Assembly: GCA_016870515.1 (NCBI GenBank)
Contig: VGBL01000005.1
Coordinates: 67,373-131,372 of the forward strand
Direction of reading: 5' to 3'
Length of the DNA stretch: 64,000 bases
Source of the DNA: Actinomycetota bacterium
Lineage (GTDB): Bacteria > Actinomycetota > Actinomycetes > S36-B12
Every line of letters starts with the position of its first letter. Position 1 is the stretch's first letter. This document shows, piece after piece, positions 7,120-29,251 of the stretch. A program made the translations under genes and the position numbers. Under the pieces are notes generated by a model. That model saw only the letters and a list, made by a program, of their open reading frames with translations, did not search any database and had not been told where the DNA came from.

Positions 7120-7611
7120 ATGGCCGACAACAGCTTCGACATCGTTTCCAAGCTCGACCGCGCGGAGGTCGATAACGCCGTCTCTCAGGCGGCCAAGGAA
7201 CTCGCCCAGCGCTTCGACTTCAAGGGCACCGGTGCCAAGGTCGAGTTCAAGGGCGAGATGACCATCGAACTCGAGGCGGAGACCGAGGACCGCGTCAAGG
7301 CGGCCCTTGAGGTGCTGAAGGAGAAGCTCATCAAGCGCGGCGTCAGCCTGAAGGTGCTCAACGCCGGCGACGCCCGCGCATCGGGTCGCCTGCACAAGAT
7401 CACCTGCCAGCTCAAGGAAGGCATCAACCAGGAGCAGGCCAAGAAACTCGCCAAGCTCATCCGCGACGAGGGCCCGAAGAAGGTCAAGACTCAGGTGCAG
7501 GGCGAGGAGCTCCGCGTGTCGAGCTCAAGCCGCGACGACCTGCAGGAGGTCATCCAGCTCGTCAAGGATGCCAACCTCGACTTCCCCGTGCAGTTCGTCA
7601 ACTACCGCTGA
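7120..7611 (+). CDS. yajQ: YajQ-family nucleotide-binding protein (UPF0234)
   Basis: [21 protein letters not shown]...QFVNYR matches the highly conserved YajQ sequence end to end. Alternative ATG at 7111. Confidence 0.9.
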
Positions 7612-7949
7612 GGGGCGCTCGACAGCCAGTCGGCCAGCCGCTGGGTCTCGTGCACGAGACCGCCCGCGTCCTGTGACGCGTAGTCGTGCTCCGGCGACCA
7701 GAAGAGCGCGTCGAAGGGGCATGCCTCGACGCAGATGCCGCAATACATGCACAGTCCCCAGTCGATCGTGAAGCGATCGAGGACTGCGACGTAGCGAGGG
7801 CGACGCGCACCGGGCTCGGTGACCTCTTCGGTGTGGCTGTCGATCTCGATGCACCAGTCAGGGCACTCGCGCACGCAGATCATGCACGAGGTGCACGACA
7901 CCGGATCAAGCGCGATGACACCGCGCGCCTGACGGGGCACCTCCGTCAC
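7602..7949 (-). CDS. NuoI-like 2x[4Fe-4S] ferredoxin-type protein (paralogue, not the canonical nuoI)
   Basis: Two CxxCxxCxxxCP motifs ([12 protein letters not shown] and [12 protein letters not shown]). The ATG overlaps the upstream stop (ATGA at 7946-7949). Confidence 0.8.
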
Positions 7950-8428
7950 GACTCCGCCTCGCGCAGCCAGTCGGCGGGCACTCCGGGGGGCGGGCTCGTC
8001 CGGCGCGTACGCCGCCCTGATGACGCACCCTCCTCATGACCACTGCGAGCGCCCGGCCACGGGGTGACGGCACGTGCACCGAGCACGGTCTCCTTGCGCA
8101 GCGGATGAAGCCCCAGGCCCGGGGCGAGCAACAGCGGTCGTGGATCAGGGTGACCGTCGAACTCCACGCCGAACATCTCGGCAATCTCCCGCTCGTGCCA
8201 TGAGGCGCCCGGCAGCACGTCGACGAGCGAGCCCAGCCGTGGCTCGCGTCGATCAACCGAGGTGGTGACAGTGCTGATCTCAGCGGTGCCGGGGCGCAGG
8301 AGGACGAGCACGATCTCGATGCGCTGCGCCTCGGGATAGTCCACAGCGGTCAGCAGATCGAGGTAGGCGAAGCCCTGGGCAACCTGGGCGCGGATGCTCG
8401 ACGCCCAGTCGCGCGGATCGACGTTCAT
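7946..8428 (-). CDS. NuoC-like (30-kDa subunit family) protein, paralogue
   Basis: Contains [24 protein letters not shown] and HPLRKE, the signature of the NuoC family. The C-terminal 45 aa are low complexity. ATGA overlap with the upstream gene. Confidence 0.75.
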
Positions 8429-8901
8429 GCCGACTCCGCCAACTGCACGATCGCGTCGACAAGGGCCTCCGGGCGAGGAGGGCAGCCCGGCACGTAAGAG
8501 CGGACGGGGAGCACCTGATCGACGCCCTTGGTGACCGAGTAGGAGTCCCAGTAGGGGCCGCCGGAGTTACTGCACGCGCCGAACGACATGGCCACCTTAG
8601 GCTCGGGCATCTCCTCCCAGGCGGCCAAGACCGCCGGCGCAAGGGCATCGGTGACCGTGCCCGAGACGACTAGGACGCGGGCCTGCCCTGGGTCGCCGTC
8701 CGCCACCGGGACGAGCAGGCCTCGCCCGAGGGCGGCGGTGAATTCCACGGCGCAGCAGGCCAGCCCTAGGTCGGCGACGTGCACCCGCACTCCGGGGGCG
8801 CCGGCGACGGCATACACGCTCACCCGGGCAGGGTAGTCCGCCACTCCCGGCACCCGAAGCACGCCAGACCGGTCCGGGGGGTAGAGAATGAGGGCACCCA
8901 T
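8425..8901 (-). CDS. NuoB-like (20-kDa, N2-cluster family) protein, paralogue
   Basis: [21 protein letters not shown] and [10 protein letters not shown] retain all four Cys ligands of the NuoB family. The start is uncertain: ATG 8901 was chosen, and several in-frame GTGs lie down to about 8820. Confidence 0.75.
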
Positions 8902-8922
8902 ACGCCCGCGAAAAGGACGTGC

Positions 8923-10779
8923 ATGTCGAGTGACGCAAAGGCCGTCGTCCCCCTCGGTCACGTCGTCATCCGATTTGCCGGCGACTCCGGTGACGGCATG
9001 CAGCTGACGGGCGATCGATTCACCTCCGAGACCGCCGGGCTAGGCAACGACCTATCGACGCTGCCCGACTTCCCCGCAGAGATCCGCGCTCCCGCGGGCA
9101 CGCTCCCCGGCGTCTCGGCCTTCCAACTCCACTTTGCTGATCACGACATCATGACTCCTGGCGATCGACCCGACGTGCTGGTCGCCATGAACCCAGCAGC
9201 ACTCAAGGCCAATCTCAAGGACCTGCGTGCAGGCAGCACGCTCATCGTCAACACTGACGAATTCACCAAGCGCAACATCGAGAAGGTCGACTACGCCGCC
9301 AATCCCCTCGACGACGGTTCGCTCGATTCCTACGACGTGCACCAGATCGGCCTGACCTCCATGACCGTCGAGGCCCTGGCTGGCTTCGACATCACCAAGA
9401 AGGATGCCGGGCGAGCGAAGAACATGTTTGCCCTCGGCCTGCTGTGCTGGCTCTACAGCCGCTCGACCGAGGGCACGATCGACTTCCTTAAGGCCAAGTT
9501 CGCCAAGAAGCCGGAGATCCTGGCCGCCAACATCGCTGCCTTCGAGGCCGGGTGGTCGTTCGGCGAGACCACCGAGTCCTTCTCCGTGCGCTACGAGGTC
9601 AAGCCCGCGCCGATGCGCGCCGGCCTCTACCGCAACATCACCGGCAATCCCGCGCTCGCCTACGGCCTCATCGCCGCATCGCAGCAATCGGGGCTGCCAC
9701 TCTTCCTCGGCTCCTACCCCATAACGCCCGCGTCAGACATCCTTCATGAGCTGAGCAAGCACAAGAACTTCGGCGTCGTCACCTTCCAGGCCGAAGACGA
9801 GATAGCCGGCATCGGCGCGGCGCTGGGTGCGGCTTACGGTGGCGCGCTTGCCGTGACGGCCACGTCGGGTCCGGGTATCGCGCTGAAGTCCGAGACCATC
9901 GGCCTGGCCGTCTCGCTCGAGCTGCCGCTCATCGTCGTCGACGTCCAGCGAGGCGGGCCATCCACGGGCCTGCCGACCAAGACCGAGCAGGCTGATCTGC
10001 TGCAGGCGATGTTCGGTCGCAACGGTGAGGCTCCCGTGCCGATCGTGGCCCCGCGCTCCCCCGGCGATTGCTTCGATGCCGCCCTCGAGGCCGCTCGGAT
10101 CGCCGTGACCTATCGCACGCCCGTGCTCCTGCTCTCCGATGGCTACCTCGCCAACGGATCCGAGCCCTGGGCCGTGCCCGATGCCACGACGCTGCCGGTG
10201 ATCGAGCCTGCCTTCGCGACGGAGCCAAATCACGACGGCGAGTTCTGGCCCTATCTGCGCGATCCGGAGACGCTCGCCCGCCCGTGGGCGGTCCCGGGCA
10301 CGGCGGGCCTGGAGCACCGAATCGGCGGACTGGAAAAGGCCGATGGCACGGGCAACATCTCCTACGACCCCGACAACCACGAACACATGGTCCGACTGCG
10401 TCAGGCCAAGGTCGACGCCATCGCACGCAGCATCGGACCACTCGAGGTCGACGATCCATCGGGTGAGGCCCGCGTCCTGGTCCTCGGGTGGGGCTCCACC
10501 TACGGTCCGATCGGTGCCGCCTGCCGCGCCGTGCGGGCCGAGGGTGGCCAGGTCGCCCATGCGCACCTGCGTCACCTCAACCCCTTCCCGGCCAACACCG
10601 CCGAGGTGCTCCGCGCGTACGACCGGGTGATCATCCCGGAGATGAACCTCGGCCAGCTTGCCCTGCTGATCCGCGGGCGGTTCCTCGTCGACGCGATCGG
10701 CTACAACCAGGTGCGAGGAATGCCGTTCACCTCCGAGGAGCTGGCCACCACGATCACCGATGTCATCGAGAGTCTGTGA
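8923..10779 (+). CDS. korA: 2-oxoglutarate:ferredoxin oxidoreductase subunit alpha
   Basis: 618 aa with [14 protein letters not shown] at the N-terminus. It has two-subunit OFOR architecture with korB immediately downstream. ORF trimmed to ATG 8923. Confidence 0.85.
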
Positions 10780-10786
10780 GGGACCC

Positions 10787-11845
10787 GTGACCGCCGCCGA
10801 CCTGCCCATGCCCGGCCTCGCGCTCGTGCCTCGCACCGACGAGAAGCAAAGTGCCAAGGACTTCAAGACCGATCAGGAGGTGCGCTGGTGCCCCGGCTGT
10901 GGCGACTACGCCATCCTCGCGGCAGTGCAGGGCTTTCTGCCCGAGTTGGGACTGCGCAAGGAGAACATCGTGTTCGTCTCGGGCATTGGATGCTCCTCGC
11001 GCTTCCCCTACTACATGGACACCTTCGGCATGCACTCGATTCACGGGCGCGCTCCGGCGATCGCGACGGGCCTCGCGCTCACGCGGCCTGACCTGTCGGT
11101 GTGGGTGATCACCGGCGATGGCGACGCCCTGTCGATCGGCGGCAACCACCTCATCCACGCGCTTCGTCGCAACGTAAATCTCAAGATCCTGCTGTTCAAC
11201 AACCGCATTTACGGCCTGACCAAGGGTCAGTACTCCCCCACGTCGGAGACCGGCAAGGTGACCAAGTCCACGCCGCTCGGCTCCCTCGACCACTCGTTCA
11301 ACCCGGTGTCCTTGGCACTCGGGGCCGAGGCATCCTTCGTCGCCCGCACCATGGACTCCGACCGCAAGCATCTAACCGAGGTTCTGCGCCGGGCCGCCGC
11401 ACATGAGGGCACCGCGCTCGTGGAGATCATGCAGAACTGCAACATCTTCAACGATGGTGCGTGGGAGTCTCTCAAGGACTCCGAGACGAGCGACGACCGG
11501 ATGATCCGACTCGAAGATGGCCAGCCCGTGGTCTTCGGCAAGGACGCCTCTAAGGCCGTCGTCCGCGGGGCCGACGGGCACATCGTGGTAGCCAACACCG
11601 CTGACGTCGATGACTGGGAGATCATCCACTACGACTCGCATGCCGACGACCCGGGGCTTGCGTTCGCGCTATCGCGACTGGCAGATGTCCATTCCCTCGA
11701 CAACACCGCTGTCGGCGTCTTCCGCGACGTGCAGCGCCCCGCGTATGACCGCATGGTTCGCGAACAGGTGGCTTCGGTGCGCGCCAACGGCGAAGGCGAC
11801 CTCCAAGCCCTGCTTCAGGGCAAGGACACCTGGACAGTCCACTGA
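10787..11845 (+). CDS. korB: 2-oxoglutarate:ferredoxin oxidoreductase subunit beta
   Basis: Carries the WCPGCGDYAIL cysteine motif and ThDP-binding GDGDALSIGGNH. GTG 10787 is preceded by GAGGGA. Confidence 0.85.
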   Translation: MTAADLPMPGLALVPRTDEKQSAKDFKTDQEVRWCPGCGDYAILAAVQGFLPELGLRKENIVFVSGIGCSSRFPYYMDTFGMHSIHGRAPAIATGLALTRPDLSVWVITGDGDALSIGGNHLIHALRRNVNLKILLFNNRIYGLTKGQYSPTSETGKVTKSTPLGSLDHSFNPVSLALGAEASFVARTMDSDRKHLTEVLRRAAAHEGTALVEIMQNCNIFNDGAWESLKDSETSDDRMIRLEDGQPVVFGKDASKAVVRGADGHIVVANTADVDDWEIIHYDSHADDPGLAFALSRLADVHSLDNTAVGVFRDVQRPAYDRMVREQVASVRANGEGDLQALLQGKDTWTVH

Positions 11846-12771
11846 CCGACCAGCCGCGTTCTGATCTCACCTCTGGCTTCCTCTACGCACTCGCGGCCCA
11901 CGGGCTGTGGGGGCTGTTCCCCCTCTATTTCTCCCTCTTCGACTCCGTCTCGCCCCTCGAGGTCGTCGCCTATCGCATCATCTGGTCGCTGGCGTTCTGC
12001 GTGCTGCTCCTGGCGATCACGCGCAGCCTCGGGAGCGTTCGCGAGGTCGTTCGCACGCCTCGCCGCCTAGGCCTGCTCACGGGCGCAGCCGTCGCCATCA
12101 CCATCAACTGGACGACCTACGTCTACTCGGTGTCGACCAACCAGGTGGTCGAGGCGGCGCTCGGCTACTTCATCAATCCCCTCGTGACTGTCGCGCTCGG
12201 CGTCGTCGTCCTCCGCGAGCGCCTGCGGCCCTGGCAGTGGATCGCCATTGCCATCGCGACGGTGGGTGTTGTCACCATCGGCATCGGCGAAGCCGCTGCC
12301 CCCTGGCTGGGGCTCGTGCTCGCCTTCTCCTTCGGGGCCTACGGACTGCTCAAGAAGATGGCGAAGGTCGACGCCATCCCGAGCCTGACTATCGAGACCG
12401 CGGTGCTGGTGCCCTTCGCCTTTGTCGTCCTCGTCCTCATCGAGTCGGGGGGCAGCGCCGCGATCGCGAGCCAGGGCTGGGGCATGGGCGCCCTGCTCGC
12501 CTTCCTCGGGCCGGTGACCGCCGTCCCCCTGCTGGCCTACGCCGCCGCCGCTAACCGACTGCCCCTTGCCGTCCTCGGCATCCTGCAGTACTTCACGCCG
12601 ACGGTGATTTTCCTCCTTGGGATCACCGTCTTCGGCGACACCGTTAACACCCTCGAGTGGATCGGTTTCACCTTTATCTGGTTTGCGCTCGCGGTGTTCT
12701 CGACGGATGCGTGGCGTCAAGCGCGACACGCTAACCGCGCCGACTCCCTCGAGGTCGCCGAGCAGGCCTAG
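11842..12771 (+). CDS. rarD: EamA-family transporter RarD (start codon unresolved)
   Basis: GFLYALAAHGLWGLFPLYF...VAYRIIWS is the conserved RarD TM1 region. It lies upstream of the first ATG/GTG/TTG (12001). The only in-frame candidates after the stop at 11746 are CTG 11830 and CTG 11842, and CTG 11842 overlaps the korB TGA. Confidence 0.7.
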   Translation: MTDQPRSDLTSGFLYALAAHGLWGLFPLYFSLFDSVSPLEVVAYRIIWSLAFCVLLLAITRSLGSVREVVRTPRRLGLLTGAAVAITINWTTYVYSVSTNQVVEAALGYFINPLVTVALGVVVLRERLRPWQWIAIAIATVGVVTIGIGEAAAPWLGLVLAFSFGAYGLLKKMAKVDAIPSLTIETAVLVPFAFVVLVLIESGGSAAIASQGWGMGALLAFLGPVTAVPLLAYAAAANRLPLAVLGILQYFTPTVIFLLGITVFGDTVNTLEWIGFTFIWFALAVFSTDAWRQARHANRADSLEVAEQA

Positions 12772-12943
12772 AGGCCAGCGCGTCGCGCTCGATCAAGGAT
12801 CTCGGCGCGAGCGCGAGGTCGAGCGCCACTACCGTGACGCTGGCGTGCTGGCCATTGGCGGGGTTCGACCGAGGTGATCACCGACCTCGTCGCCCGCCTG
12901 CTCGACTACTAGCTGCCGCCACTCCTACCCCGCGCCAATCGCT

Positions 12944-13000
12944 GAGTGTGCACTTACGCGCACGCCGTCCCTCTATGAGCGCGTCCGCAAGTGCACACTC
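12944..13000. repeat. perfect 12-bp inverted repeat with nested 6-bp stem (hairpin or palindromic site)
   Basis: GAGTGTGCACTT (12944-12955) pairs with AAGTGCACACTC (12989-13000). Inside it, ACGCGC pairs with GCGCGT. It lies between the convergent 3' ends of rarD and the polyprenyl synthase gene. Confidence 0.7.
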
Positions 13001-13026
13001 GACGAAACGTTGGGTGGTGGCGGGGG

Positions 13027-14025
13027 TCAACCGGTGCGGGTGACGACGTAATCGCAGAGCACCTCGAGCGCCTGGCGCGGCGGGCCGTCGGGCAGGTCGG
13101 CCAGCGTGGTGCGCGCCTCGTCGGCCCACCGCCGCGCCTGGCTCCGCGCCTGCGTCAAGGCCGGGTGCTGCCGCAGCGCGGCCAGGGCCTCGGCGTGGTC
13201 GGCATCATCGGGCAGCGGTCGACCGAGCAGGTCGCGCAGGCGGGGATCGGCGTCGGAGAGCGCGATAAGCGCGGTCAGCGTGGGCACGCCTTCGCGCAGA
13301 TCGGTGCCGGGGGTCTTGCCGGAGTCACTGCTGTCGCTGGCGATGTCGACGATGTCGTCGGCCAACTGGAAGGCGACGCCGATCTTCTCGCCGAAGACGG
13401 TCATAGTCTCAACCACCCGCGGATCGGCACCCGACATCATCGCGCCGAAGCGACCCGACGTGGCGATGAGCGAACCCGTCTTGTCGGCTAGCACGCGCAG
13501 GTGGTGCTCGACAGGGTTGGCATCGGCATCCGGACCCACGGTCTCGCGGATCTGGCCGGTGCACAGTCGCTCGAAGGTGCGCGCCTGGATGCGCACCGCC
13601 TCGGGTCCGAGATCGGCGAGGACATCGGATGCCTTGGCGAAGAGGAAGTCACCGGTGAGGATGGCGACGGTGTTGTCCCAGCGGGCATTGGCGGACGCCG
13701 CCCCCCGTCGCAGGTCTGCTTCGTCCATGACGTCGTCGTGGTACAGGGTCGCGAGGTGCGTGAGCTCGACGACGACGGCCGAGGGCACGACACCGGGAGC
13801 CTCTGGATCGCCGAACTGCGCCGCGAGAAGGACCAGCAGCGGGCGAAACCTCTTGCCCCCGGCCTGGACGAGGTGCCGCGATGCCTCGGTGACGAAGGGG
13901 TAGTCGCTGCGGACAGCATCGCGCAGGGCGACTTCGACGGAGGCCATGCCAGCGACGAGCCGGGCCTCGAGGTCCTGATCAAGGACGCCGAGGCCGAGCA
14001 CTGATCCAGCGGGCCGGGGACTCAT
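13027..14025 (-). CDS. polyprenyl diphosphate synthase (menaquinone side chain)
   Basis: Two aspartate-rich motifs, LYHDDVMDEADLRRG and FQLADDIVD. ATG 14025 has GGAG 7 nt upstream. Confidence 0.88.
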   Translation of the reverse strand: MSPRPAGSVLGLGVLDQDLEARLVAGMASVEVALRDAVRSDYPFVTEASRHLVQAGGKRFRPLLVLLAAQFGDPEAPGVVPSAVVVELTHLATLYHDDVMDEADLRRGAASANARWDNTVAILTGDFLFAKASDVLADLGPEAVRIQARTFERLCTGQIRETVGPDADANPVEHHLRVLADKTGSLIATSGRFGAMMSGADPRVVETMTVFGEKIGVAFQLADDIVDIASDSSDSGKTPGTDLREGVPTLTALIALSDADPRLRDLLGRPLPDDADHAEALAALRQHPALTQARSQARRWADEARTTLADLPDGPPRQALEVLCDYVVTRTG

Positions 14026-14035
14026 GGCCACTCCA

Positions 14036-15577
14036 CTATCGCAGGAATACACCAGCCTGCTCGATGAGGTTGATGACCGGCTCCGGAAGGACGCCGAGGA
14101 TGACGGTCACGGCCGCCGAGACGGCCAGGGCGAGGGTCGTGGTCGCCGATGGCACGGCGGCGGCGGGCGAACCCTCGACAGGCTCCCGGAAGAACATGAT
14201 GACCACGACGCGGATGTAGAAGAAGGCGGCCATGACGCTGGCAATGACGCCGACGATGACCAGGCCGAGGTTGTCGACGGCCAGGGCCGACTCGAACACG
14301 AGGAACTTGGCGATGAATCCACTGGTCAGCGGGAAGCTGGCCAACGCAAACATGAAGATGCCGAACGAGACGGCAACCAGCGGCGACCGCTTGCCCAGCC
14401 CCGCCCACTGATCGAGCCGGGTCATCTCGCCGCCGGCATCGCGGACCATCGCGATGATGGCGAAGATCCCGATCGTGGTGAAGCCGTAGGCGACCAGGTA
14501 GAAGATCGACGCGTACAGGCCCTCGGCGGTGGCCGTCGAGACGCCGATGAGGATGAAGCCGGCCTGGGCGATGGAGGAGTAGGCGATCATCCGCTTCATA
14601 TCGGTCTGCGCGATGGCCACTACAGACCCGAAGAGCATGGTCAGGCCCGCGATGATCCACAGCAGCGGCTCCCACTCCCAGCGAACACCGCCCAGGGCGA
14701 CGTACATGACGCGCAAGAGTGCGCCGAACGCGGTGACCTTGACGGCCGCGGCCATGAATGCCGTCACCGGGGCGGGCGAGCCCTGATAGACGTCGGGCAC
14801 CCAGGCATGGAATGGCACCGCGCCGATCTTGAACAGCAGGCCGACCGACAGCAGCGCCACGCCCCCCACAACGAGCGCGGTCTGGCCGGGCTCGGCGGCA
14901 AGGGCATCGGCAATGACGGAGAACTCTACGCTGCCGGAGTAGCCGTAGAGAAGGGCGATACCGAAGAGCAGGAACGCCGACGAGAAAGCTCCGAGGATGA
15001 AGTACTTGAGCGCGGCCTCCTGCGAGAGGAGGCGACGGCGGCGCGACATGCCCGCCATGAGGTAGAGCGGAAGCGACATGATCTCGAGGGCGATGAAGAG
15101 AACGAGGAGATTGGACGCCGTGACGAACAGCATCATCCCGAAGACGGAGAAGAGGAAAAGCGGCCAGATTTCGGTCTGGAAGTAGCCGCGCGTGGTGAGC
15201 TCGCGCTCATCGTCGGATCCGGGGAGCGCGGATGCGCGCGGCGCAAAGGCGTCACCAGCCGGATCGAGTTGACGCTCGGACATGAGCAGCGCCACGAGGA
15301 TGGCGAGCAGGAGGATCAGGCCCATGAAGAGGATGCCGGGCCCGTCGATGGCGATCGCTCCCTCGGCCTGCAGACCCAAGGTGGTGCGGTTGACGACGAG
15401 GACGCCGAACGCTCCGATAAGCGATCCGAAGGCGAGCACGAGTTGGATGGGACGTCGACCATTACGGCCGACGAACGCTTCGACGATCACGCCGATTACC
15501 CCCGCGGCTCCGACGATGATGTAGGGCAGCAGGGCGATGTAGTCAATGCTCGGTGCCGTCATCACTTCCGGGTTCAC
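14036..15577 (-). CDS. nuoN: NADH-quinone oxidoreductase subunit N
   Basis: Polytopic antiporter-like protein and last gene of the nuo operon. GTG 15577 overlaps the nuoM stop (GTGA). Alternative ATG at 15562. Confidence 0.9.
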   Translation of the reverse strand: MNPEVMTAPSIDYIALLPYIIVGAAGVIGVIVEAFVGRNGRRPIQLVLAFGSLIGAFGVLVVNRTTLGLQAEGAIAIDGPGILFMGLILLLAILVALLMSERQLDPAGDAFAPRASALPGSDDERELTTRGYFQTEIWPLFLFSVFGMMLFVTASNLLVLFIALEIMSLPLYLMAGMSRRRRLLSQEAALKYFILGAFSSAFLLFGIALLYGYSGSVEFSVIADALAAEPGQTALVVGGVALLSVGLLFKIGAVPFHAWVPDVYQGSPAPVTAFMAAAVKVTAFGALLRVMYVALGGVRWEWEPLLWIIAGLTMLFGSVVAIAQTDMKRMIAYSSIAQAGFILIGVSTATAEGLYASIFYLVAYGFTTIGIFAIIAMVRDAGGEMTRLDQWAGLGKRSPLVAVSFGIFMFALASFPLTSGFIAKFLVFESALAVDNLGLVIVGVIASVMAAFFYIRVVVIMFFREPVEGSPAAAVPSATTTLALAVSAAVTVILGVLPEPVINLIEQAGVFLR

Positions 15578-17118
15578 TGCTCACCCCCTTGCACGATCGG
15601 AGGTATGACCGGCGGCGGATCGGAAATGCCGACGACCTCGAGGGTGCGCTCGACCGCGGGGTTGACGACGTTGAGCACGCCCGCCGGTAAGACACCAAGG
15701 AGGATCGTCAGGAAGACGATGGGGGCCAGGGCGGTGATCTCACGACCGCGCAGGTCGGTCATGCCCTCGACAGCCGGCGACGTCGGGCCGGTGGCAACCT
15801 TCTGGTAGAGCTTCAGCGCGTATGCCGCGGTGATGACGATGCCGAGCGCGGCAATGACACCGACGGTGATGTTGCGGGCGAATGTGCCCAGCAGCACCAG
15901 GAACTCGCCGATGAAACTGGCCAGGCCAGGCAGCGCCAGCGACGACAGTGCAGCGAAGAGGAAGAAGCCCGCGAGGACCGGCGCCACCTTGTTGACCCCG
16001 CTGTAGGTCGAGATGAGGCTCGATCCCCCCGCGCGCATCATGAGGAAGCCCGCGGTCAGGAACAGCGAAGCCGTGGAGAGTCCGTGAGCGAGCATGTAGA
16101 GCGTCGAGCCGGTCATGCCCCATGACGTGAACACGAAGATGCCGAGGGCAATGAAGCCGAAGTGCGACATGGAGCTGTAGGCAAACAGTCGCTTCATGTC
16201 CTTCTGGCCGAAGGCCACCAGCGCGCCATAGAGGATCCCAATCACCGCGAGTGCAACGACGAGGGGGGCGTAGAAATCTGATGCCGCCGGGAAGATCGGG
16301 AGAAGGTAGCGGATCATGCCGAAGGTACCGACCTTGTCGAGCACGCCGATGAGCAGGACTGCCGTCGCCGGGGTCGACTCCTTGGCTGCATCGGGCAGCC
16401 ACGTGTGGAACGGCCACAGCGGAGCCTTGATGGCGAACGCGATGAAGAATCCCAGGAAAAGGATCTTCTGCGTGTTGGGGTCGACGTCGAGCCCGACCAG
16501 TGCAGCGAAGTCGAAGGTGCCCTGGCCGAGTTGCTGCGCCGACACGACGTACAGGCCGATGAGGGCAGCGAGCATCAGCAGCCCGCCGACGAGGCTGTAG
16601 ACGAGGAACTTGACCGCGGCATACCTGCGGTCAGCTCCGCCGTAGCGCCCGATCAGGAAGTAGATCGGGATCAGCATGACCTCGAAGAGGACGAAGAAGA
16701 GGAAGACGTCGGTGGCTGAGAACACACCGATCATGAGGGTCTCGAGCACAAGAATGAGTGCGAAGTAGCCCTTGATGCTGCGTCCACCCGGCGCGACGTC
16801 GTTCCAGCCAGCCAGGATCACGACGGGCACGAGCGTGGCCGACAGGGCGACCAGGACCAGCCCGATACCGTCGACGCCGACGGCGTAGGAGATGCCCAGG
16901 GCCGGAATCCACGGGTAGCTTTCGACGAATTGGAAGGGCGCCGTCGAGTCGGCCTGGAACTGAAGGCCCATCACGACCGTGAGCACGAGGGTGAGCAGTG
17001 AGAAGCCGAGGGCGACCTGCTTGGGCAGGACGTCGCGATCGCGAGGCAGCAGCATGAGAACGATCGCACCCAGCAGGGGGATGACCATGAGCACCGTGAG
17101 CCAAGGCAGCGATGTCAT
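15574..17118 (-). CDS. nuoM: NADH-quinone oxidoreductase subunit M
   Basis: 514-aa antiporter-like subunit. ATGA overlap with the nuoL stop. Confidence 0.92.
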
Positions 17119-19052
17119 GGCAGTCTTGCCAGGTAGAGGATCACCAGGACCATGACCGCGCCGCCCACCATGAGGAGGGCGTAGGAACGCGCGAATCCGC
17201 TCTGCAGTCTGCGCAGGCGCGCTCCAAGTCCACCAACCAGGCGCGCGCTCCCCTCGACGGTGCCGTCGATGATGCGCTCGTCGACGAAGATCGATCCATC
17301 AGACAGGACGTAGGTGGGCTTCACCACGAGCGCTTCGTTGATGGCATCATCGTAGAGACTGTTGCGCGCAGCCACGGTGAGGAGGTTGCCCTTGGGGGCC
17401 AGCACCGGAACCTCCCTGCGGTATCTGGCGATGGCGATGGAGACGCCGATCAGCACGATGAGGAGAGTGATGCCCTCGAGCACGATGGTGGGGATCGCGA
17501 GCGGCTTCTCCTCGATGCCGGTGACCGGCTCGAGCCAGCTCTCGATATTGCCCCAGTAGAGCAGCGCGGCACCGGTGACGACGGAGCCGATGCCCAGGAT
17601 GATCAGCGGGATCGTCATGACCGGCTTGGACTCATGCGGGTGCGCATCGTCGGGCCAGCGCGGCTTGCCGAAGAAGGTCATGATCACCATGCGGGTCATG
17701 TAGAAGCCGGTGATGCCGGCCGCGAGCACGCCGCAGATGCCGATGATGATGTTTTGCTCAAAGGCCGCGTGGATGATGTCGTCCTTCGAGAAGAAGCCGG
17801 AGAAGGGTGGGATGCCGATGATCGCGAGGTAGCCGCACATGAACGTGATCCAGGTGATCACCATGACCGAGCGCAGCGCACCGTAGCGGCGCATTTCCTG
17901 CTCGCCGTGCATGCCGTGGATGACTGAGCCGGCGCCGAGGAAGAGGTTGGCCTTGAAGACACCGTGCGTCAGCAGGTGGAAGATGGCGAAGACGTAGCCG
18001 ATGGGGCCGAGGCCGGCCGCCATAACCATGTAGCCGATCTGGCTCATGGTCGATCCGGCCAGTGACTTCTTGATGTCGTCCTTCGCCGAGCCGATGATCG
18101 CGCCGAGGAACATCGTGATGATGCCGATGATCACCACGGTGGTGAGGGCGAACGCCGTGCCGTCGTAGATCGGGTTGCTGCGTACGATGAGGTAGACGCC
18201 CGCGGTCACCATCGTGGCAGCGTGGATCAGGGCCGAGACGGGAGTCGGGCCCTCCATCGCGTCGAGGAGCCACGCCTGGAGGGGGAACTGCGCCGACTTG
18301 CCGCAGGCGGCGAGCAGCAGCAGGAGGCCGATCCAGGTGAGGGTGGACTCGTTGGCTTCGCCGGCCGCGGCGAAGACGGAGTCGAAGGTGACCGTGCCGA
18401 AGGTGATGAAGATGAGCATGATGGCCAGGCTCAGGCCCACATCGCCGACGCGGTTCATGATGAAGGCCTTCTTGGCAGCGGCAGCAGCGCTCGGCTTGAA
18501 CTGCCAGAAGCCGATCAGCAGGTAGGAGGCGAGACCGACGCCCTCCCAGCCGACGTAGAGCAGAAGGTAGTTGTCGGCGAGCACCAAAAGCAGCATCGCC
18601 GCGATGAAGAGATTGAGGAAGCCGAAGAACTTGCGCCGGTCGGGATCGTCCTCCATGTAGCCCAGGGAGTAGACGTGAATAAGTGCGCCGACGATGGTGA
18701 TGAGGAGGACAAAGACCATCGACAACTGGTCGAGTTGCAGGGCCGCGGGCACGGTGAAACCGCCCACGAACACCCACTCGAAGAGCGTCTGGCCGACGGC
18801 CCGGTCGTCGGCCGGCAGGCCCAGGAGGCTGACGACCAGGACGATGGCGAAGACCGCGGCGAGGCTGACGGTCAGCACGCCGAGATAGGGACCCCAGCGA
18901 TTGGTGCGACGCCCCCCGACGAGCAGGACGGCCGCGCCGAGCAGGGGCAGGGCGATGAGGAGCCACAGGTAGGCGAACACGCCCGTCGCCGCTGCCAGCG
19001 GCTCCAGGCTCGGCGCGCCCTCAGAGAGGACGACAGCGCCGTTGCCGATCAC
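17115..19052 (-). CDS. nuoL: NADH-quinone oxidoreductase subunit L
   Basis: Antiporter-like subunit with a long C-terminal region. GTG 19052 is preceded by GAAGGAGG-cgcc. Alternative ATG at 19103. Confidence 0.9.
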
Positions 19053-19107
19053 GGCGCCTCCTTCTCCTCGGTGTTCCCCGAGTTGGCCCGGCAAGCCGGG
19101 CATGCGG

Positions 19108-19407
19108 TCAGTACTTCAGCAGGTTGGGCTCATCGATCGAGGCGGAGCGCCGCGAACGATAGACGGTCACGATGATGGCGAGTCCTACGACGACCTCCGC
19201 CGCTGCGACGACCATGACGAAGAAGGCGATCACCTGTCCGTCGAGATTGCCATTCATGCGAGCGAAGGCGACAAAGGCGAGATTGGTGGCATTGAGCATG
19301 AGTTCGACCGACATGAAGACCACGATCGCGTTGCGCCGTACGAGCACACCGATCGCGCCGAGCGTAAACAGCACGCAGGCGAGGATGATGTAGTTGTCCA
19401 CGCTCAT
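19108..19407 (-). CDS. nuoK: NADH-quinone oxidoreductase subunit K
   Basis: 99 aa, [26 protein letters not shown]... with three TMs. ATGA overlap with the nuoJ stop. The rest of track ORF 19108..19713 is a spurious extension. Confidence 0.92.
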
Positions 19408-20243
19408 GACGGCTCCCCCGGCGACGTGCCTGGGTCGTCGGCGACCGGCCGCTTGGCCGGACCGTAGGTGGCCTCGCCGCTGGTCAGGGCAGCCGTCTCG
19501 GCAACGGCCGCGGTGTCGACCGGGCGCAGGTCGCCACGCGCACGCAGCGGGCCAGGGACGGAGATATCCGCCACCGACCCATCGGGAAGGAGGGCGGGAG
19601 TGTCGACGGCGTTGTGCCGGGCGTAGACGCCCGGAGGCGGCAGCGGCGCAGGATGAATCCCGCCACGAGTGCGCTCCTGGGAGATCTCGCGCTGAGTGCG
19701 TCGAGGCTGCCACCGCTCGCGGTGAGCGAGCACGAGGGCGCCGAGCGCTGCGACGACCAGCAGACCGGCAACGATCTCGAAGGCGAGGACGTATTCGGAG
19801 AAGAGCAGGCGGGCAAGCCCTTCGACATTGCCGCCGTATTCACCGTTGGCTCCGTCGAGGCCGACGACGGGTACGCCGTTCAGCGCGCTGCCGAGGCCGA
19901 TGGCAAGGAGGAGGCCGAATCCCACGGCTAGGAGGATGCCGGCGACGCGCTGCCCCCTGAGGGTTTCGACCAGGGAGTCAGACGAGTCGACACCTACGAC
20001 CATGAGCACGAACAGGAAGAGCATCATGACGGCACCGGTGTAGACGATGATCTGGACCATGCCGAGGAACGGCGCTGCATTGGCGATGTAGAGCACCGCC
20101 AGGCTGATCATCGTCAGGGCGACCCAAAGCGCACTATGCACGGCGCGTCGCGACAAGATGAGCCCGATACCGCCCACCACTGATAGGAATGCGCAGACCC
20201 AGAAGACCACGGCTTCGGCCGCGCTGGGGTCGGTCGAGGTCAC
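19404..20243 (-). CDS. nuoJ: NADH-quinone oxidoreductase subunit J
   Basis: NuoJ TM core ([22 protein letters not shown]...) plus a Pro/Ala-rich C-terminal tail. GTG 20243 overlaps the nuoI stop (GTGA). Alternative ATG at 20270. Confidence 0.88.
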
Positions 20244-20818
20244 GCCTTGTATCCCTGTTTCTCGAACCATATGGCGGCATCGCCATCCGGCTCCTGCTCG
20301 GGTACCGAACCTGAGACTTGACCGGCGTAGTAGTCCTTCTCGGTGGTGCCCGGCACCATGCTGTGCGGCGGGGCGATCATGCCCGGGAGGAGCGGCGCGA
20401 GGAGTTCTGACTTCTCGAAGATGAGATCGGCCCGATTGTCGTCGGCGAGCTCGTAGACATTGGTCATCGTGAGCGCGCGGGTCGGACAGGCTTCGATGCA
20501 CAGACCGCAGAAGATGCAGCGCAGGTAGTTGATCTGGTAGACCCGGCCATAGCGCTCACCGGGTGAGAAGCGCTCGGTGTCGGTGTTGTCTGCGCCTTCC
20601 ACCAGGATGGCGTCGGCAGGGCATGCCCAGGCGCACAGCTCGCAGCCAACGCACTTCTCGAGTCCATCGGGCCAGCGATTGAGCTGGTGACGTCCGTGGA
20701 AGCGTGGCTTGGGTGGGAATCGATCTGCCTGCTCGGGATACTGCTCGGTCACGACCTTCTTGAACATCGTCTTGAAGGTGACGCCGAATCCGCGGACGGC
20801 GGGAGGCAGCTCAGGCAT
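20240..20818 (-). CDS. nuoI: NADH-quinone oxidoreductase subunit I
   Basis: [12 protein letters not shown] and [12 protein letters not shown] (2x[4Fe-4S]). ATG 20818 lies 5 nt after the nuoH stop. Confidence 0.92.
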
Positions 20819-22178
20819 GGGTGCCCTCCTCCGGATCGCTGGTGCTCGGCACGGGCGCATCCGCCGACTCGCCGGGCAAGACCGCGGTGGCCGTGCGTGT
20901 TGCGGTGCCCTCCACGACGGCGGCCTTGGCTCGACGCGAGGTGTAGGTGAACTCCTGGCCCGGGAGCGGAGGCACGGGGTAGCCGCCTGCGTAGGGGTCG
21001 AAGGGCTTGTCCATCTCCGCCTTTGCCGCTTCAACCTGCGCCCGCTCCCTGCGCTCGGAACGCACCTGCAGCACCCACGAGCCCACGATGATGACGACGA
21101 GCAGGCCTCCGCCGAGGAGGAGCAGCTCCTGGGTGGTCACGGAGAACTCATTGCGCACGACTCTCGCCGCGGCCACGATGACGATCCACAGAAGAGATGC
21201 GGGGATCAGGACCTTCCAGCCGAAGCGCATGAACTGGTCGTAGCGAAGTCGCGGAAGCGTGCCGCGCAGCCAGATGAAGGCGAAGATGAACAGCTGCACC
21301 TTGACAAACCACCAGAGCAGCGGCCACCAGCCGACATTGGCACCATCCCACAGCGACAGTGGCCAGGGCGCGATCCATCCGCCGAGGAAGAGCGTGGTTG
21401 CAAGGGCCGAGACGGTGACCATGTTGATGTATTCGGCGAGGAAGAAGAGCGCGAACTTCAGCGAGGAGTACTCCGTGTGGAAGCCCCCGACGAGCTCACC
21501 CTCGGCCTCAGGCAGGTCGAAAGGCGCCCGGTTGGTCTCACCCACCATGGCGGTCGCGTAGATCAGGAGCGACGGGAGCAGGATTACGGCATACCAGATG
21601 GGCTCCTGCGCGGCCACGATGCCCGAGGTCGACATCGTGCCTGCATAGAGGAATACCGCCACGAATGACATCGACATCGCGAGCTCATAGGAGATCATCT
21701 GCGCCGACGACCTGAGGCCGCCGAGCAGCGGATAGGTGGACCCGGACGACCACCCGGCCAGCACGATGCCGTAGACGCCGATCGACGCGATCGCCAGCAC
21801 GTAGAGCACAGAGACGGGGAAGTCGGTCAGTTGCAGCGGTGTCTCGACGCCGAAGATGCTCACCATCGGTCCGAAGGGGATGACAGCGAACGCCAGGAAG
21901 GCCATGGTCGCCGAGATGACGGGGGCGATCCAGTAGACGGCGAGGTGCGCGGTCTTGGGAATGATTTCTTCCTTGAGGCCGAGTTTGAAGCCGTCCATAA
22001 GGGATTGGAGGAGCCCGAAGGGACCCACGCGGTTGGGTCCGATGCGGTTTTGCATGCGCGAGACTACTCGGCGCTCCCACCAGATGGTGAAGAGCGTCAT
22101 GAGCACCAGGCCGACGAAGATGGCCAGGACCTTCAGGATGATCAGCCACCAGGGGTCGTTGAACGTGTATTCGCTCAT
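20811..22178 (-). CDS. nuoH: NADH-quinone oxidoreductase subunit H
   Basis: Conserved N-terminus [17 protein letters not shown]...[29 protein letters not shown] overlap with the nuoG stop. About 90-aa C-terminal extension. Confidence 0.92.
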
Positions 22179-25923: not shown

Positions 25924-25924
25924 G

Positions 25925-29248: not shown

Positions 29249-29251
29249 GGC

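What the first reader, a model, noticed from the sequence alone, without database searches (positions are those of the whole stretch)
7602..8922. Orphan NuoB/NuoC/NuoI-like Fe-S operon back-to-back with korAB, separate from the complete nuoA-N operon
Three minus-strand ORFs are chained by 4-nt ATGA overlaps at 8425-8428 and 7946-7949. They carry unmistakable complex-I Q-module signatures:
- NuoB-like: [21 protein letters not shown] and [10 protein letters not shown], so all four N2-type Cys ligands are kept.
- NuoC-like: [24 protein letters not shown] and HPLRKE.
- NuoI-like: [12 protein letters not shown] and [12 protein letters not shown].

The canonical nuoB, nuoC and nuoI lie 12-20 kb away in the same window and are clearly diverged from these, so these are paralogues and not an assembly duplicate. 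No NuoD, NuoH or antiporter-like partner is adjacent. The chosen ATG of the first gene (8901) is only 21 bp from the divergent korA start (8923), so both promoters must sit inside coding sequence and the two units are probably co-regulated.

Hypothesis (inference): this is a small Fe-S electron-relay module. It might accept electrons from KOR or ferredoxin, or offer an alternative input to the menaquinone pool. The alternative is a decayed remnant of a second nuo-like or hydrogenase-like cluster. I do not know of a characterised B-C-I-only module.
Basis: partly seen in the sequence, partly recalled or inferred. Interest (0 to 1): 0.7.

Follow-up and report, generated by a model that had tools for sequence, protein, structure and literature searches.

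The report
Membrane-less remnant of actinobacterial nuo2
The three small genes are the iron-sulfur subunits (B, C, I) of the poorly understood second complex-I-like "nuo2" cluster of actinobacteria, kept intact and trimmed down after all its membrane subunits were deleted, so they probably form a soluble electron-carrying protein, possibly serving the neighbouring 2-oxoglutarate oxidoreductase.

Summary
The trio is real: three translationally coupled minus-strand genes with NuoB, NuoC and NuoI domains, only 30-40% identical to the canonical nuoB/C/I in the same window.

It is not an orphan of unknown origin. In 73 of the 86 distinct loci compared (this window plus 85 fetched from relatives: Streptomyces, Micromonospora, Streptosporangiales, Aeromicrobium and others), the orthologues sit in the same chromosomal slot. 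There they form a 10-gene cluster, A2-B2-C2-H2-I2-J2-K2-L2-M2-N2. This is the Streptomyces "nuo2" cluster (SCO4599-4608), whose function is unclear.

In this window and 12 other distinct loci (mostly Nanopelagicales-like MAGs), all seven membrane genes are gone and exactly B2-C2-I2 remain.
- This reduction happened at least twice independently: KorAB tree, 98% and 100% bootstrap.
- All 4+8 Fe-S cysteines are invariant.
- dN/dS is about 0.1-0.5.
- 4-nt stop/start overlaps were re-formed at the new C2-I2 junction.
- B2 and I2 lost the segments that full nuo2 shares with canonical NuoB/NuoI.

A conserved leaderless-type promoter puts the B2 start at GTG 8823. That leaves a 99-bp divergent spacer to korA, not 21 bp.

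Best reading: a soluble three-cluster Fe-S module. The link to KorAB is suggestive but not proven.

The parts
8425..8823 (-). B2: a NuoB-like [4Fe-4S] (N2-type) subunit of about 132 aa. The start is most likely GTG 8823. Alternative in-frame starts are GTG 8844 (139 aa, JGI call) and ATG 8901 (158 aa, NCBI call).
   Evidence: It matches PF01058. The four Cys (CCxxE, GACS, PGCPP) are invariant in 80 sequences. It is 59-62% identical to nuo2 NuoB2 of cultured actinomycetes, against 40% to the window's own NuoB. The start is inferred from homologues, the leaderless promoter and pLDDT. The predicted fold matches PSST/Nqo6/NuoB.
7946..8428 (-). C2: a NuoC-like (30-kDa) subunit of 160 aa. It has a family-specific C-terminal tail, WPG...RRxRRxxPPGVPxxW. 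Its start overlaps the B2 stop (ATGA).
   Evidence: It matches PF00329. The tail motif is conserved in 22 sequences at 42-73% identity. That tail has no counterpart in PDB NuoC chains. In the AF2 model the core (1-100) has pLDDT 95-98 and the tail 45-60. About 211 50%-identity representatives score E<=1e-30.
7602..7949 (-). I2: a NuoI-like 2x[4Fe-4S] ferredoxin-type subunit of 115 aa. Its GTG start overlaps the C2 stop (GTGA). It lacks the N-terminal helix of NuoI.
   Evidence: It matches Fer4 families and sits below the NuoI cutoff. Eight Cys plus a ninth are invariant in 71 sequences. It is 57-63% identical to nuo2 NuoI2, against 30% to the canonical NuoI. The N-terminal roughly 35 aa shared by full nuo2 I2 and canonical NuoI are absent. 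It aligns to PDB NuoI only over residues 18-105.
8830..8835 (-). Putative -10 hexamer TACCCT, 6 nt upstream of GTG 8823. This is the architecture of a leaderless transcript.
   Evidence: The same TANNNT-N6/7-RTG arrangement is found in 11 of 12 trio-only loci. The background frequency is 0.37%. It has not been tested experimentally.
8824..8922 (.). Divergent spacer of 99 bp between B2 and korA.
   Evidence: Relatives have spacers of 79-719 bp, and one has a 6.7-kb insertion.
8884..8889 (+). Putative korA -10 hexamer GAGAAT, 33 nt upstream of the korA ATG.
   Evidence: A SASAATG motif sits at the corresponding place in WIN, L001, L005, L022, L036 and L042. This was seen by eye. The generic sigma-70 scan found nothing.
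8923..10779 (+). korA: alpha subunit of a 2-oxoacid:acceptor oxidoreductase. It has no ferredoxin domain.
   Evidence: It scores 669.6 bits on TIGR03710 and matches POR, POR_N and PFOR_II.
10760..11845 (+). korB: beta (TPP) subunit.
   Evidence: It matches TPP_enzyme_C and the PorB_KorB family.
7120..7611 (+). yajQ (DUF520): the conserved downstream boundary of the nuo2 slot. It is convergent with I2, and the two 3' ends overlap by 10 nt.
   Evidence: It matches PF04461 and NF003819. It follows I2 in trio loci, and follows N2 in every full-cluster locus that reaches that far (L038, L055, L064).
14036..29611 (-). The canonical 14-gene nuoA-N operon, holding the paralogues of the trio.
   Evidence: tblastn self-map and ORFs.
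12001..14052 (.). Polyprenyl synthase (13027-14052, minus strand) and EamA/RarD transporter (12001-12771, plus strand). These are the synteny markers between nuoN and korB.
   Evidence: The same order is seen in L001-L004, L008, L038, L064 and L081.

Best explanation
**Shown.** The three genes are the hydrophilic subunits (B2, C2, I2) of the actinobacterial second complex-I-like cluster, nuo2 (A2-B2-C2-H2-I2-J2-K2-L2-M2-N2). That cluster has no NuoD, E, F or G of its own. In this lineage all seven membrane-subunit genes have been deleted from the locus. The three Fe-S/scaffold genes were kept, re-joined by 4-nt stop/start overlaps, and placed under a leaderless-type promoter divergent from korAB.

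**Inferred, fairly strongly.** They are functional and no longer dock to a membrane arm.
- All ligands for three [4Fe-4S] clusters are invariant: two on I2 and one N2-type on B2.
- Selection is purifying.
- B2 has lost its canonical N-terminal strand (LNWGRRYSLW), the RHDFxRxG...PRQA loop after the CC motif, and the C-terminal helix extension.
- I2 has lost the N-terminal amphipathic helix.
- From my knowledge of solved complex I structures, not tested here, these are the parts of NuoB and NuoI that lie against NuoH/NuoA and the quinone tunnel.

The product would be a small soluble heterotrimer. It would carry a three-cluster wire, with C2 as scaffold and its conserved tail as a docking peptide.

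**Inferred, weakly.** The most likely electron donor is the divergently transcribed KorAB, a two-subunit 2-oxoglutarate:acceptor oxidoreductase. KorAB has no ferredoxin domain of its own, and its physiological acceptor in actinobacteria is unidentified. The downstream acceptor is unknown. Whether a NuoD-type partner encoded elsewhere joins the trio is also unknown.
For: **Orthology and position**
- Among the 86 distinct loci compared (the window plus 85 fetched loci; L003 and L004 duplicate L002), 73 have B2-C2-H2-I2-J2..N2 in the same slot, with an A2 detected upstream of B2 in most. The slot runs korB<korA<...>yajQ, downstream of nuoN/polyprenyl synthase/EamA.
- Identities to nuo2 proteins are 59-62% (B), 43-49% (C) and 57-63% (I). 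Identities to the window's canonical subunits are 40%, 37% and 30%.
- In the tree, trio and full nuo2 group together and lie far from the canonical sequence.
- The literature describes nuo2 (SCO4599-4608) as lacking the N-module and of unclear function (PMC9239103, PMC3765725, PMC8388888).

**Independent reductions**
- In the KorA+KorB NJ bootstrap, the main trio clade has 98% support. Trio-only L057 is sister to full-cluster L068 at 100% support and 89% identity.
- L006 and L059 fall outside the main clade.
- L059 still has a full-type B2.

**Integrity**
- The cysteines are invariant.
- dN/dS is 0.11-0.40 for B2, 0.07-0.28 for I2 and 0.13-0.57 for C2.
- RTGA overlaps are present at both junctions in 7 of 12 trio loci and at the new C2-I2 junction in 10 of 12. 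Both independent lineages L057 and L006 have them at both junctions.
- The B2 and C2 cores are predicted to fold confidently.
- GC content equals that of the flanks.

**Remodelling**
- Alignments show the missing segments. L057's upstream frame holds a decayed relic of the I2 helix.

**Promoter**
-.

**KOR link**
- korA is divergent upstream in 10 of 12 determinable trio loci and 45 of 63 determinable full loci.
- KorAB has no Fer4 domain.
- The physiological acceptor of mycobacterial KOR was not identified (PMC2773412).
Against: - No expression, protein or biochemical data exist for any trio.
- Only about 10 kb on each side of each locus was seen. Relocated nuo2 membrane genes or a nuoD2 elsewhere in these genomes cannot be excluded.
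- C2, whose only known role is to clamp NuoD, is retained. This hints at a NuoD-type partner that I could not look for.
- korAB is not adjacent in two trio loci (L007, L008), nor in Micromonospora, Aeromicrobium and Kribbella full clusters. In many full clusters unrelated genes lie between korA and nuoA2. The adjacency could therefore be inherited synteny rather than function.
- M. tuberculosis has KOR, but to my knowledge no nuo2. This was not tested here.
- Trio sequences evolve faster than full-cluster ones, which is also compatible with partial relaxation.
- The statement that the lost segments contact NuoH/NuoA rests on remembered structures, not on a computation here.
- The NJ trees have a single-sequence outgroup.
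Confidence: 0.5

Rival explanations
1. The trio is an alternative set of peripheral-arm subunits. It swaps into the canonical complex I encoded 5-20 kb away, replacing NuoB/C/I. The result would be a hybrid enzyme that lacks the NADH module and takes electrons from ferredoxin or KOR.
For: - The canonical nuoA-N operon is in the same window.
- A hybrid nuo/nuo2 machinery has been suggested for Streptomyces (PMC9239103).
- B2's closest solved relative is the ferredoxin-dependent cyanobacterial NdhK.
- Retention of C2 would make sense if it clamps the canonical NuoD.
Against: - Trio-type B2 and I2 have lost the very segments that full nuo2 and canonical subunits share at the N-termini, and also the post-CC loop. 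The loss happened convergently in independent lineages. One would expect these segments to be kept if docking to NuoH/NuoA were still required.
- L059, the most recent reduction, still has them. This suggests they decay once the nuo2 membrane arm is gone, even though a canonical complex I is presumably present.
Confidence: 0.15
2. The trio is a functional soluble Fe-S module, but it has no specific relation to KorAB. The adjacency is inherited synteny. The module serves another redox partner, for example as a general low-potential carrier, or together with a NuoD2-type protein encoded elsewhere.
For: - The whole block nuoA-N / polyprenyl synthase / EamA / korBA / nuo2 / yajQ / ... rpmG-hadABC-murB-secE-nusG is conserved gene order.
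- korAB is missing next to the trio in L007 and L008, and next to nuo2 in 18 full loci.
- Unrelated genes intervene in many full loci.
- nuoD2 is reported at a separate locus in Streptomyces.
Against: - In trio loci the spacer to korA shrank to about 80-220 bp with back-to-back promoters. Full clusters have a median spacer of about 2.1 kb.
- KorAB lacks its own ferredoxin module.
Confidence: 0.2
3. The three genes are non-functional leftovers of nuo2 that simply have not decayed yet.
For: - The membrane partners are gone.
- Branches are longer and dN/dS is somewhat higher than in full clusters.
- NCBI annotates I2 as a truncated hypothetical protein.
Against: - Twelve of 12 ligand cysteines are invariant across a clade whose members are only 43-87% identical.
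- dN/dS is 0.1-0.5.
- Reading frames are intact in all 13 distinct trio loci.
- The same three genes were retained independently.
- New RTGA coupling formed at the novel C2-I2 junction.
- The promoter is conserved.
Confidence: 0.04
4. The trio is the ancestral form, and the 10-gene nuo2 cluster arose later by insertion of membrane-subunit genes.
For: With the single canonical outgroup, trio sequences branch at the base of the nuo2 tree.
Against: - Full-type B2 and I2 share N-terminal and loop segments with canonical NuoB/NuoI. The common ancestor therefore had them.
- Trio-only L057 is nested next to full-cluster L068 in the KorAB tree at 100% bootstrap.
- L057 retains a decayed relic of the I2 helix.
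- The basal position is the expected long-branch artefact.
Confidence: 0.03

Closest known systems
Streptomyces 'nuo2' cluster (SCO4599-4608; nuoA2, B2, H2-N2), the second, N-module-less complex-I-like operon of actinomycetes
   Same: - B2, C2 and I2 are orthologous: 59-62%, 43-49% and 57-63% identity.
- The chromosomal slot between korBA and yajQ is the same.
- The extra ninth Cys in I2 and the C2 tail motif are shared.
   Different: - Here all seven membrane subunits (A2, H2, J2-N2) are absent.
- B2 and I2 are trimmed at the N-terminus, the loop and the C-terminus.
- The long disordered tails seen in Streptomyces, Micromonospora and Streptosporangium are absent.
- nuo2 itself has no assigned function.
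Eleven-subunit, NuoEFG-less complex I relatives that use ferredoxin (cyanobacterial/chloroplast NDH-1; Fpo-like complexes)
   Same: - There is no NADH-oxidising module.
- The B and I subunits carry the same three [4Fe-4S] clusters.
- NdhK is the best PDB sequence match of B2.
- A ferredoxin-reducing enzyme, KOR, is encoded next door.
   Different: - Those enzymes have NuoD/NdhH, NuoH and the antiporter-like subunits, and they reduce quinone while pumping protons.
- The trio has none of these at the locus, so it cannot by itself bind quinone or pump.
Q-module of canonical complex I (NuoB-NuoC-NuoD-NuoI; NDUFS7/3/2/8), which exists as a soluble assembly intermediate
   Same: Three of its four subunits, with the same domain families and the same cluster ligands.
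   Different: - No NuoD is adjacent.
- All three proteins score below the NCBIfam NuoC/NuoI and NuoB equivalog cutoffs.
- The membrane-contact segments are missing.
- It is a stand-alone end product, not an intermediate.
Delta (ferredoxin-like, 2x[4Fe-4S]) subunits of 2-oxoacid:ferredoxin oxidoreductases (PorD/KorD)
   Same: I2 is a small two-cluster ferredoxin-fold protein. It is encoded next to a KorAB that lacks such a subunit. It gives a weak TIGR02179 hit, E 1e-9.
   Different: - The score of 38 bits is below the cutoff of 60.
- I2 is clearly of NuoI descent.
- It is co-translated with NuoB- and NuoC-like partners, not with korAB.

Membership tests
NuoB / PSST / Nqo6 (complex I 20-kDa subunit) | Oxidored_q6 domain and NuoB fold | tested here: met
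   PF01058 scores 73 bits against a cutoff of 27. The top Foldseek hits are complex I chain B/6/K, with TMt 0.55-0.6. phmmer gives E about 1e-28 to NdhK/Nqo6, against 1e-18 to 1e-20 for hydrogenase-type HycG/MbhJ.
NuoB / PSST / Nqo6 (complex I 20-kDa subunit) | Four Cys ligands of cluster N2 (CCxxE ... GxCxxxGG ... PGCPP) | tested here: met
   They are invariant in 12 trio-only and 68 full-cluster sequences and in the canonical NuoB.
NuoB / PSST / Nqo6 (complex I 20-kDa subunit) | Scores above curated NuoB model cutoffs | tested here: inconclusive
   The PRK06411 subfamily is just passed (122.8 against 116). TIGR01957 (119.6 against 142.7) and all equivalog models are failed.
NuoB / PSST / Nqo6 (complex I 20-kDa subunit) | N-terminal strand and post-CC loop (RYDxxRFG...SPRQ) shared by canonical and full nuo2 NuoB; works with NuoD, NuoH and NuoA | tested here: not met
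   The segments are absent or replaced in the window and in the main trio clade. No NuoD/H/A-like gene is at the locus.
NuoC / 30-kDa subunit | Complex1_30kDa domain | tested here: met
   PF00329 scores 100 bits against a cutoff of 22.5. The profile matches PDB NuoC/NDUFS3 cores with E down to 4e-22.
NuoC / 30-kDa subunit | Curated NuoC cutoffs; adjacent or fused NuoD partner | tested here: not met
   TIGR01961 scores 75 against a cutoff of 122. There is no NuoD nearby. None of the 150 best family representatives is NuoD-fused.
NuoI / TYKY / Nqo9 | Two CxxCxxCxxxCP motifs for clusters N6a and N6b | tested here: met
   Eight Cys are invariant in 71 sequences.
NuoI / TYKY / Nqo9 | Curated NuoI cutoff and N-terminal amphipathic helix | tested here: not met
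   TIGR01971 scores 62.5 against a cutoff of 113. The N-terminal roughly 35-60 residues are absent.
Actinobacterial nuo2 cluster | Orthologous B2/C2/I2 in the korBA-yajQ slot | tested here: met
Actinobacterial nuo2 cluster | Membrane subunits A2, H2, J2, K2, L2, M2, N2 encoded in the cluster | tested here: not met
   They are absent in the window and in 12 other distinct loci. Their presence elsewhere in the genome is not testable with these tools.
PorD/KorD delta subunit of 2-oxoacid:ferredoxin oxidoreductases | TIGR02179 membership | tested here: not met
   It scores 38.3 bits against a cutoff of 60.05.
Group 4 [NiFe]-hydrogenase / Ech / Mbh small-subunit modules | Small subunit paired with a NuoD-like large subunit; closer to HycG/MbhJ than to NuoB | tested here: not met
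   There is no large subunit. Hydrogenase-type chains score about 10 orders of magnitude worse than NuoB/NdhK.

The most novel reading that the evidence does not exclude
A complex-I Q-module fragment (NuoB2-NuoC2-NuoI2, three [4Fe-4S] clusters, no NuoD, no membrane arm) has been converted into a free-standing soluble redox protein. This happened repeatedly and convergently. The protein is the dedicated physiological electron acceptor or relay of the actinobacterial two-subunit 2-oxoglutarate:acceptor oxidoreductase KorAB. By extension, the full nuo2 complex would be a KOR/ferredoxin:menaquinone oxidoreductase.
Probability: 0.22. Interest if true: 0.8.

Novelty: new variant of a known kind. Interest (0 to 1): 0.6.

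Why it matters
NuoB's N2 cluster and NuoI's N6a/b clusters are, as far as I know, only known as the last steps of the electron wire inside membrane-bound complex I and its hydrogenase relatives. A lineage-spanning, selectively maintained version exists without NuoD at the locus and without any membrane arm. It arose more than once from the same parent cluster. If confirmed, this would show that part of the Q-module can be exapted as a soluble electron carrier.

It also gives a handle on two open questions:
- What the widespread but uncharacterised actinobacterial nuo2 cluster does.
- Which partner reoxidises actinobacterial KOR. Its physiological acceptor was explicitly left unidentified (PMC2773412).

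The trio-only organisms include abundant freshwater Nanopelagicales-type bacteria, so the module may matter for their energy metabolism.

If the trio turns out to be only an inherited neighbour of korAB, the finding reduces to an interesting case of reductive evolution of a paralogous respiratory operon.

Tried and rejected
- **Hydrogenase/Ech/Mbh-type origin.** Rejected. B2 is far closer to NuoB/NdhK than to HycG/MbhJ, and there is no large subunit.
- **Hidden NuoD in the nuo2 clusters.** I searched by tblastn with the window's NuoD and by Pfam on the gaps (L012 B2-C2 5.4 kb; L011 and L062 H2-I2 about 3 kb; the Streptomyces C2 tail; the L011 korA-A2 gap). These hold a sulfate permease, a SnoaL-like protein, a polysaccharide deacetylase, unknown ORFs and low-complexity tails, but no NuoD. 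One Pfam call failed on wrong coordinates.
- **Recent horizontal transfer.** Rejected on GC content and conserved synteny.
- **Generic sigma-70 and terminator scan of 7400-9100.** It found nothing. The promoter evidence comes from the comparative TANNNT-N6/7-start pattern instead.
- **Rex-type operator in the spacer.** None seen by eye.
- **Intergenic alignment across loci.** The sequences are too divergent to align globally. Only the two short -10-like motifs recur.
- **nuoD2 or relocated membrane genes in trio-only genomes.** I could not search for these.
- **Multimer structure prediction.** Not available. Only monomers of B2 and C2 were modelled.
- **Literature searches.** Searches for a described B-C-I-only module or a KOR-nuo2 link found none.
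- **Unused capacity.** The third homologous-protein search was left unused because no query would have resolved the open points.
Full report
**1. Observation**

Three consecutive minus-strand ORFs occupy 7602-8961.
- Pfam assigns them to Oxidored_q6/NuoB (73 bits), Complex1_30kDa/NuoC (100 bits) and 4Fe-4S dicluster families.
- NCBIfam places them nearest NuoB, NuoC and NuoI. All equivalog cutoffs and the NuoC and NuoI subfamily cutoffs are failed. Only the broad PRK06411 NuoB subfamily is just passed.
- A self-map of the window shows the complete canonical nuoA-N operon at 14036-29611. The trio is only 40%, 37% (64 aa) and 30% (88 aa) identical to the canonical NuoB, NuoC and NuoI.
- No second NuoD, NuoH or antiporter-like gene lies anywhere in the 64 kb.
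- GC content around the trio equals that of the flanks.

Two details need correction.
- The C/I junction is GTGA, not ATGA.
- The start of the first gene is most likely GTG 8823, not ATG 8901 (see section 5).

**2. What it is**

Homologues of the B-like and C-like proteins are numerous in Actinomycetota metagenome bins.

In MAG contigs at 43-80% identity, the same gene order recurs: nuoM-nuoN, polyprenyl synthase, EamA, korB<korA<, then B-C-I, then yajQ. Further on come rpmG, hadABC, murB, secE and nusG.

I scanned one genome per GTDB species with a C-like alignment. I then annotated all fetched loci (87 in all, 85 of them distinct because L003 and L004 duplicate L002) by BLAST against the window's own proteins. 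That gave the key result.
- 73 of the 86 distinct loci (the window plus those 85) carry the C-like gene inside a 10-gene cluster. These include Microbispora, Nonomuraea, Streptosporangium, Micromonospora, Streptomyces, Glycomyces, Actinoallomurus, Aeromicrobium, Kribbella and Jiangellaceae.
- The cluster order is nuoA-like, B, C, nuoH-like, I, then J, K, L, M and N-like. No NuoD, E, F or G is detectable.
- The cluster occupies exactly the slot between korBA (or EamA) and yajQ.

This is the 'nuo2' cluster of Streptomyces (SCO4599-4608). The literature describes it as a second NADH dehydrogenase I cluster that lacks the N-module. Its function is unclear, and a nuoD2 is encoded elsewhere (PMC9239103, PMC3765725, PMC8388888).

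Identity of the window's proteins to nuo2 proteins and to the window's own canonical subunits:

| Protein | vs nuo2 | vs canonical |
|---|---|---|
| B | 59-62% | 40% |
| C | 43-49% | 37% |
| I | 57-63% | 30% |

In a concatenated tree, trio and full-cluster sequences group together, far from the canonical sequence.

I therefore call the three genes B2, C2 and I2. The gaps inside some full clusters hold unrelated insertions, not a NuoD.

**3. How the trio arose**

Thirteen distinct loci are trio-only: the window, L001, L002 (L003 and L004 are duplicates of it), L005-L008, L022, L036, L042, L049, L057 and L059. Those that carry a taxon label are mostly Nanopelagicales or unclassified Actinomycetes/Actinomycetota MAGs; L057 is labelled Mycobacteriales.

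Full-type B2 and I2 share several segments with the canonical subunits, and the trio forms lack them. The shared segments are:
- N-terminal LNWGRRYSLWVFNFGLACC in B2.
- [23 protein letters not shown] in I2.
- The RHDFxRxGVxPF..PRQA loop after the CC motif.
- A C-terminal helix extension of B2.

The ancestor therefore had these segments, and the trio is the derived state.

A KorA+KorB neighbour-joining tree with 200 bootstraps was used as a species proxy.
- The main trio clade (window, L001, L002, L005, L022, L036, L042) has 98% support.
- Trio-only L057 is sister to full-cluster L068, with 100% support and 89% identity.
- L006 and L059 have full-cluster nearest neighbours.

The seven membrane genes were thus lost at least twice, and probably four times. 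Each time exactly B2, C2 and I2 were left.

The later trimming is also convergent.
- L057 independently lost the B2 loop, the B2 C-terminal extension and the I2 helix. A decayed relic of that helix is visible in its upstream reading frame.
- L059 still has a full-type B2 and a 54-nt C2-I2 gap, so it looks like the most recent reduction.

**4. Integrity**

- All four N2-type cysteines of B2 are invariant in 12 trio-only and 68 full-cluster sequences.
- All eight ferredoxin cysteines of I2, plus a family-specific ninth, are invariant in 13 trio-only and 58 full-cluster sequences.
- Pairwise dN/dS (NG86) within trio lineages is 0.11-0.40 for B2, 0.07-0.28 for I2 and 0.13-0.57 for C2. This is somewhat above the full-cluster values for B2 (mostly 0.06-0.18) but far below neutrality.
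- Four-nucleotide RTGA stop/start overlaps are present at both junctions in 7 of 12 trio loci. At the C2-I2 junction, which does not exist in full clusters, they are present in 10 of 12. The independent L057 and L006 have them at both junctions.
- AlphaFold2 with the family alignments gives a confident C2 core (pLDDT 95-98 for residues 1-100). It gives a reasonably confident B2 core (about 80-87), whose best structural matches are complex I PSST/Nqo6/NuoB chains.
- The C2 tail carries the conserved motif WPG...RRxRRxxPPGVPxxW. The tail is low-confidence in isolation and has no counterpart in solved NuoC chains. This is the behaviour expected of a partner-binding extension.
- About 211 representatives at 50% identity carry this C2 type. 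None of the 150 best is fused to NuoD.

**5. Start codon and promoters**

- The closest homologues start at M-SVYAVAG, which corresponds to GTG 8823.
- Residues 1-44 of the longest ORF are predicted disordered.
- In 11 of 12 trio loci a TANNNT hexamer lies 6-7 nt upstream of an in-frame ATG/GTG of B2. Only 0.37% of ATG/GTG triplets in these loci have this, giving P<1e-18 even with five candidate starts per locus.

This is the architecture of actinobacterial leaderless transcripts (established knowledge, not tested here). In the window it is TACCCT at 8835-8830.

On the other strand, a SASAATG motif recurs about 33 nt upstream of korA in six loci. In the window it is GAGAAT at 8884-8889 (by eye).

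The two genes are thus separated by a 99-bp spacer with back-to-back promoter elements. This is compatible with joint regulation. It does not require promoters inside coding sequence.

**6. Most likely mechanism**

Shown: the descent from nuo2, the loss of the membrane genes at the locus, the conservation of the ligands, and the trimming.

Inferred:
- The trimmed segments are those which, in solved complex I structures as I recall them, lie against NuoH/NuoA and line the quinone tunnel. Their convergent loss argues that the trio no longer docks on a membrane arm and works as a soluble heterotrimer.
- The trimer would carry the N6a-N6b-N2-type three-cluster wire, with C2 as scaffold.

Weaker inference: KorAB is the donor.
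- korA is divergently adjacent in 10 of 12 determinable trio loci, at 79-719 bp, with one 6.7-kb insertion.
- It lies within 0.4-5.5 kb in 45 of 63 determinable full loci.
- KorAB here has no ferredoxin domain.
- The physiological acceptor of mycobacterial KOR was explicitly left unidentified (PMC2773412).

Against the KorAB link:
- korAB is missing next to the trio in L007 and L008, and next to nuo2 in Micromonospora, Aeromicrobium and Kribbella.
- Unrelated genes often intervene.
- The whole region is a conserved synteny block.

The final acceptor is unknown. Whether a NuoD-type protein encoded elsewhere completes the module could not be examined. This matters because the only known role of NuoC is to hold NuoD.

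**7. Comparison and novelty**

- The parent cluster (nuo2) is known but uncharacterised.
- NuoEFG-less 11-subunit complexes that use ferredoxin or other donors are well known (PMC3144371, PMC4453560).
- A stand-alone B-C-I module was not found in the literature searched.
- The trio passes the domain and ligand tests for NuoB/C/I. It fails the context, cutoff and interface tests. It should therefore not be filed as complex I subunits in the functional sense.

I rate it a new variant of a known kind. It is moderately to highly interesting because of the repeated, convergent conversion of part of the Q-module into what looks like a soluble redox protein. It also suggests testable answers for nuo2 and for KOR.

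**8. Caveats**

- Only about 10 kb around each locus was visible.
- The trees are neighbour-joining, with one canonical outgroup for the trio tree.
- dS is near saturation for many pairs.
- The promoter and solubility claims are computational.
- The structural role of the lost segments is recalled, not computed.

Noticed in passing
window 7602-7611: The 3' ends of I2 (minus strand, stop at 7602-7604) and yajQ (plus strand, stop at 7609-7611) overlap by 10 nt. No terminator-like structure was found. Similar 4-14-nt convergent overlaps occur in L002 and L007.
   Followed up: partly
L079 10460-11311; L073; L061/L062; L011 14800-15652; L030; L052: In Streptomyces, Micromonospora and Streptosporangiales, C2, I2 and sometimes B2 carry C-terminal tails of 100-470 aa. 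The tails are low-complexity (Pro/Ala/Ser/Gly/Glu-rich) with no Pfam match. A short motif, R-x-I-R-P-P-G-x-L-P, recurs in the I2 tails. It resembles the conserved C2 tail motif RRxxxPPGVPxxW and may be a shared docking peptide.
   Followed up: partly
window 7605-7883 (NCBI MBM3688829.1): The public annotation of this MAG calls I2 a 93-aa 'hypothetical protein' starting at an internal ATG. This removes the first two cluster cysteines. The 115-aa GTG-started form is the conserved one.
   Followed up: yes
L012 4600-10000; L011 11500-14370; L062 11970-14190; L036 2866-9583: Some nuo2 or trio operons are interrupted by unrelated insertions. Examples: a sulfate permease plus unknown ORFs between B2 and C2; unknown and SnoaL-like ORFs between H2 and I2; and a 6.7-kb block, whose genes I did not identify, between korA and B2.
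   Followed up: partly
L007 8474-9004: This trio-only locus has no korAB, and B2 directly follows the polyprenyl synthase gene. Its B2 has a (Thr-Ala)n repeat inserted in the post-CC loop and no precomputed Pfam hit, yet it keeps all four cysteines. It is the only trio locus without the TANNNT leaderless signature.
   Followed up: partly
window 1-31000 and loci L001-L008, L038, L064, L081: A long conserved actinobacterial gene order runs nuoA-N, polyprenyl synthase, EamA/RarD, korBA, nuo2 or trio, yajQ, then rpmG, hadABC-like dehydratases, murB, secE and nusG. Adjacency arguments in this region must allow for inherited synteny.
   Followed up: partly
window 6066-6743 (minus strand): A 225-aa ORF with a C-terminal DUF4337-like hydrophobic region lies downstream of yajQ. 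Its Pfam score is borderline (26.8 against a cutoff of 27). It was not examined further.
   Followed up: no
L001 9311-9808: A 165-aa ORF without any Pfam match sits between I2 and yajQ in the closest long-contig relative. It is absent from the window.
   Followed up: no
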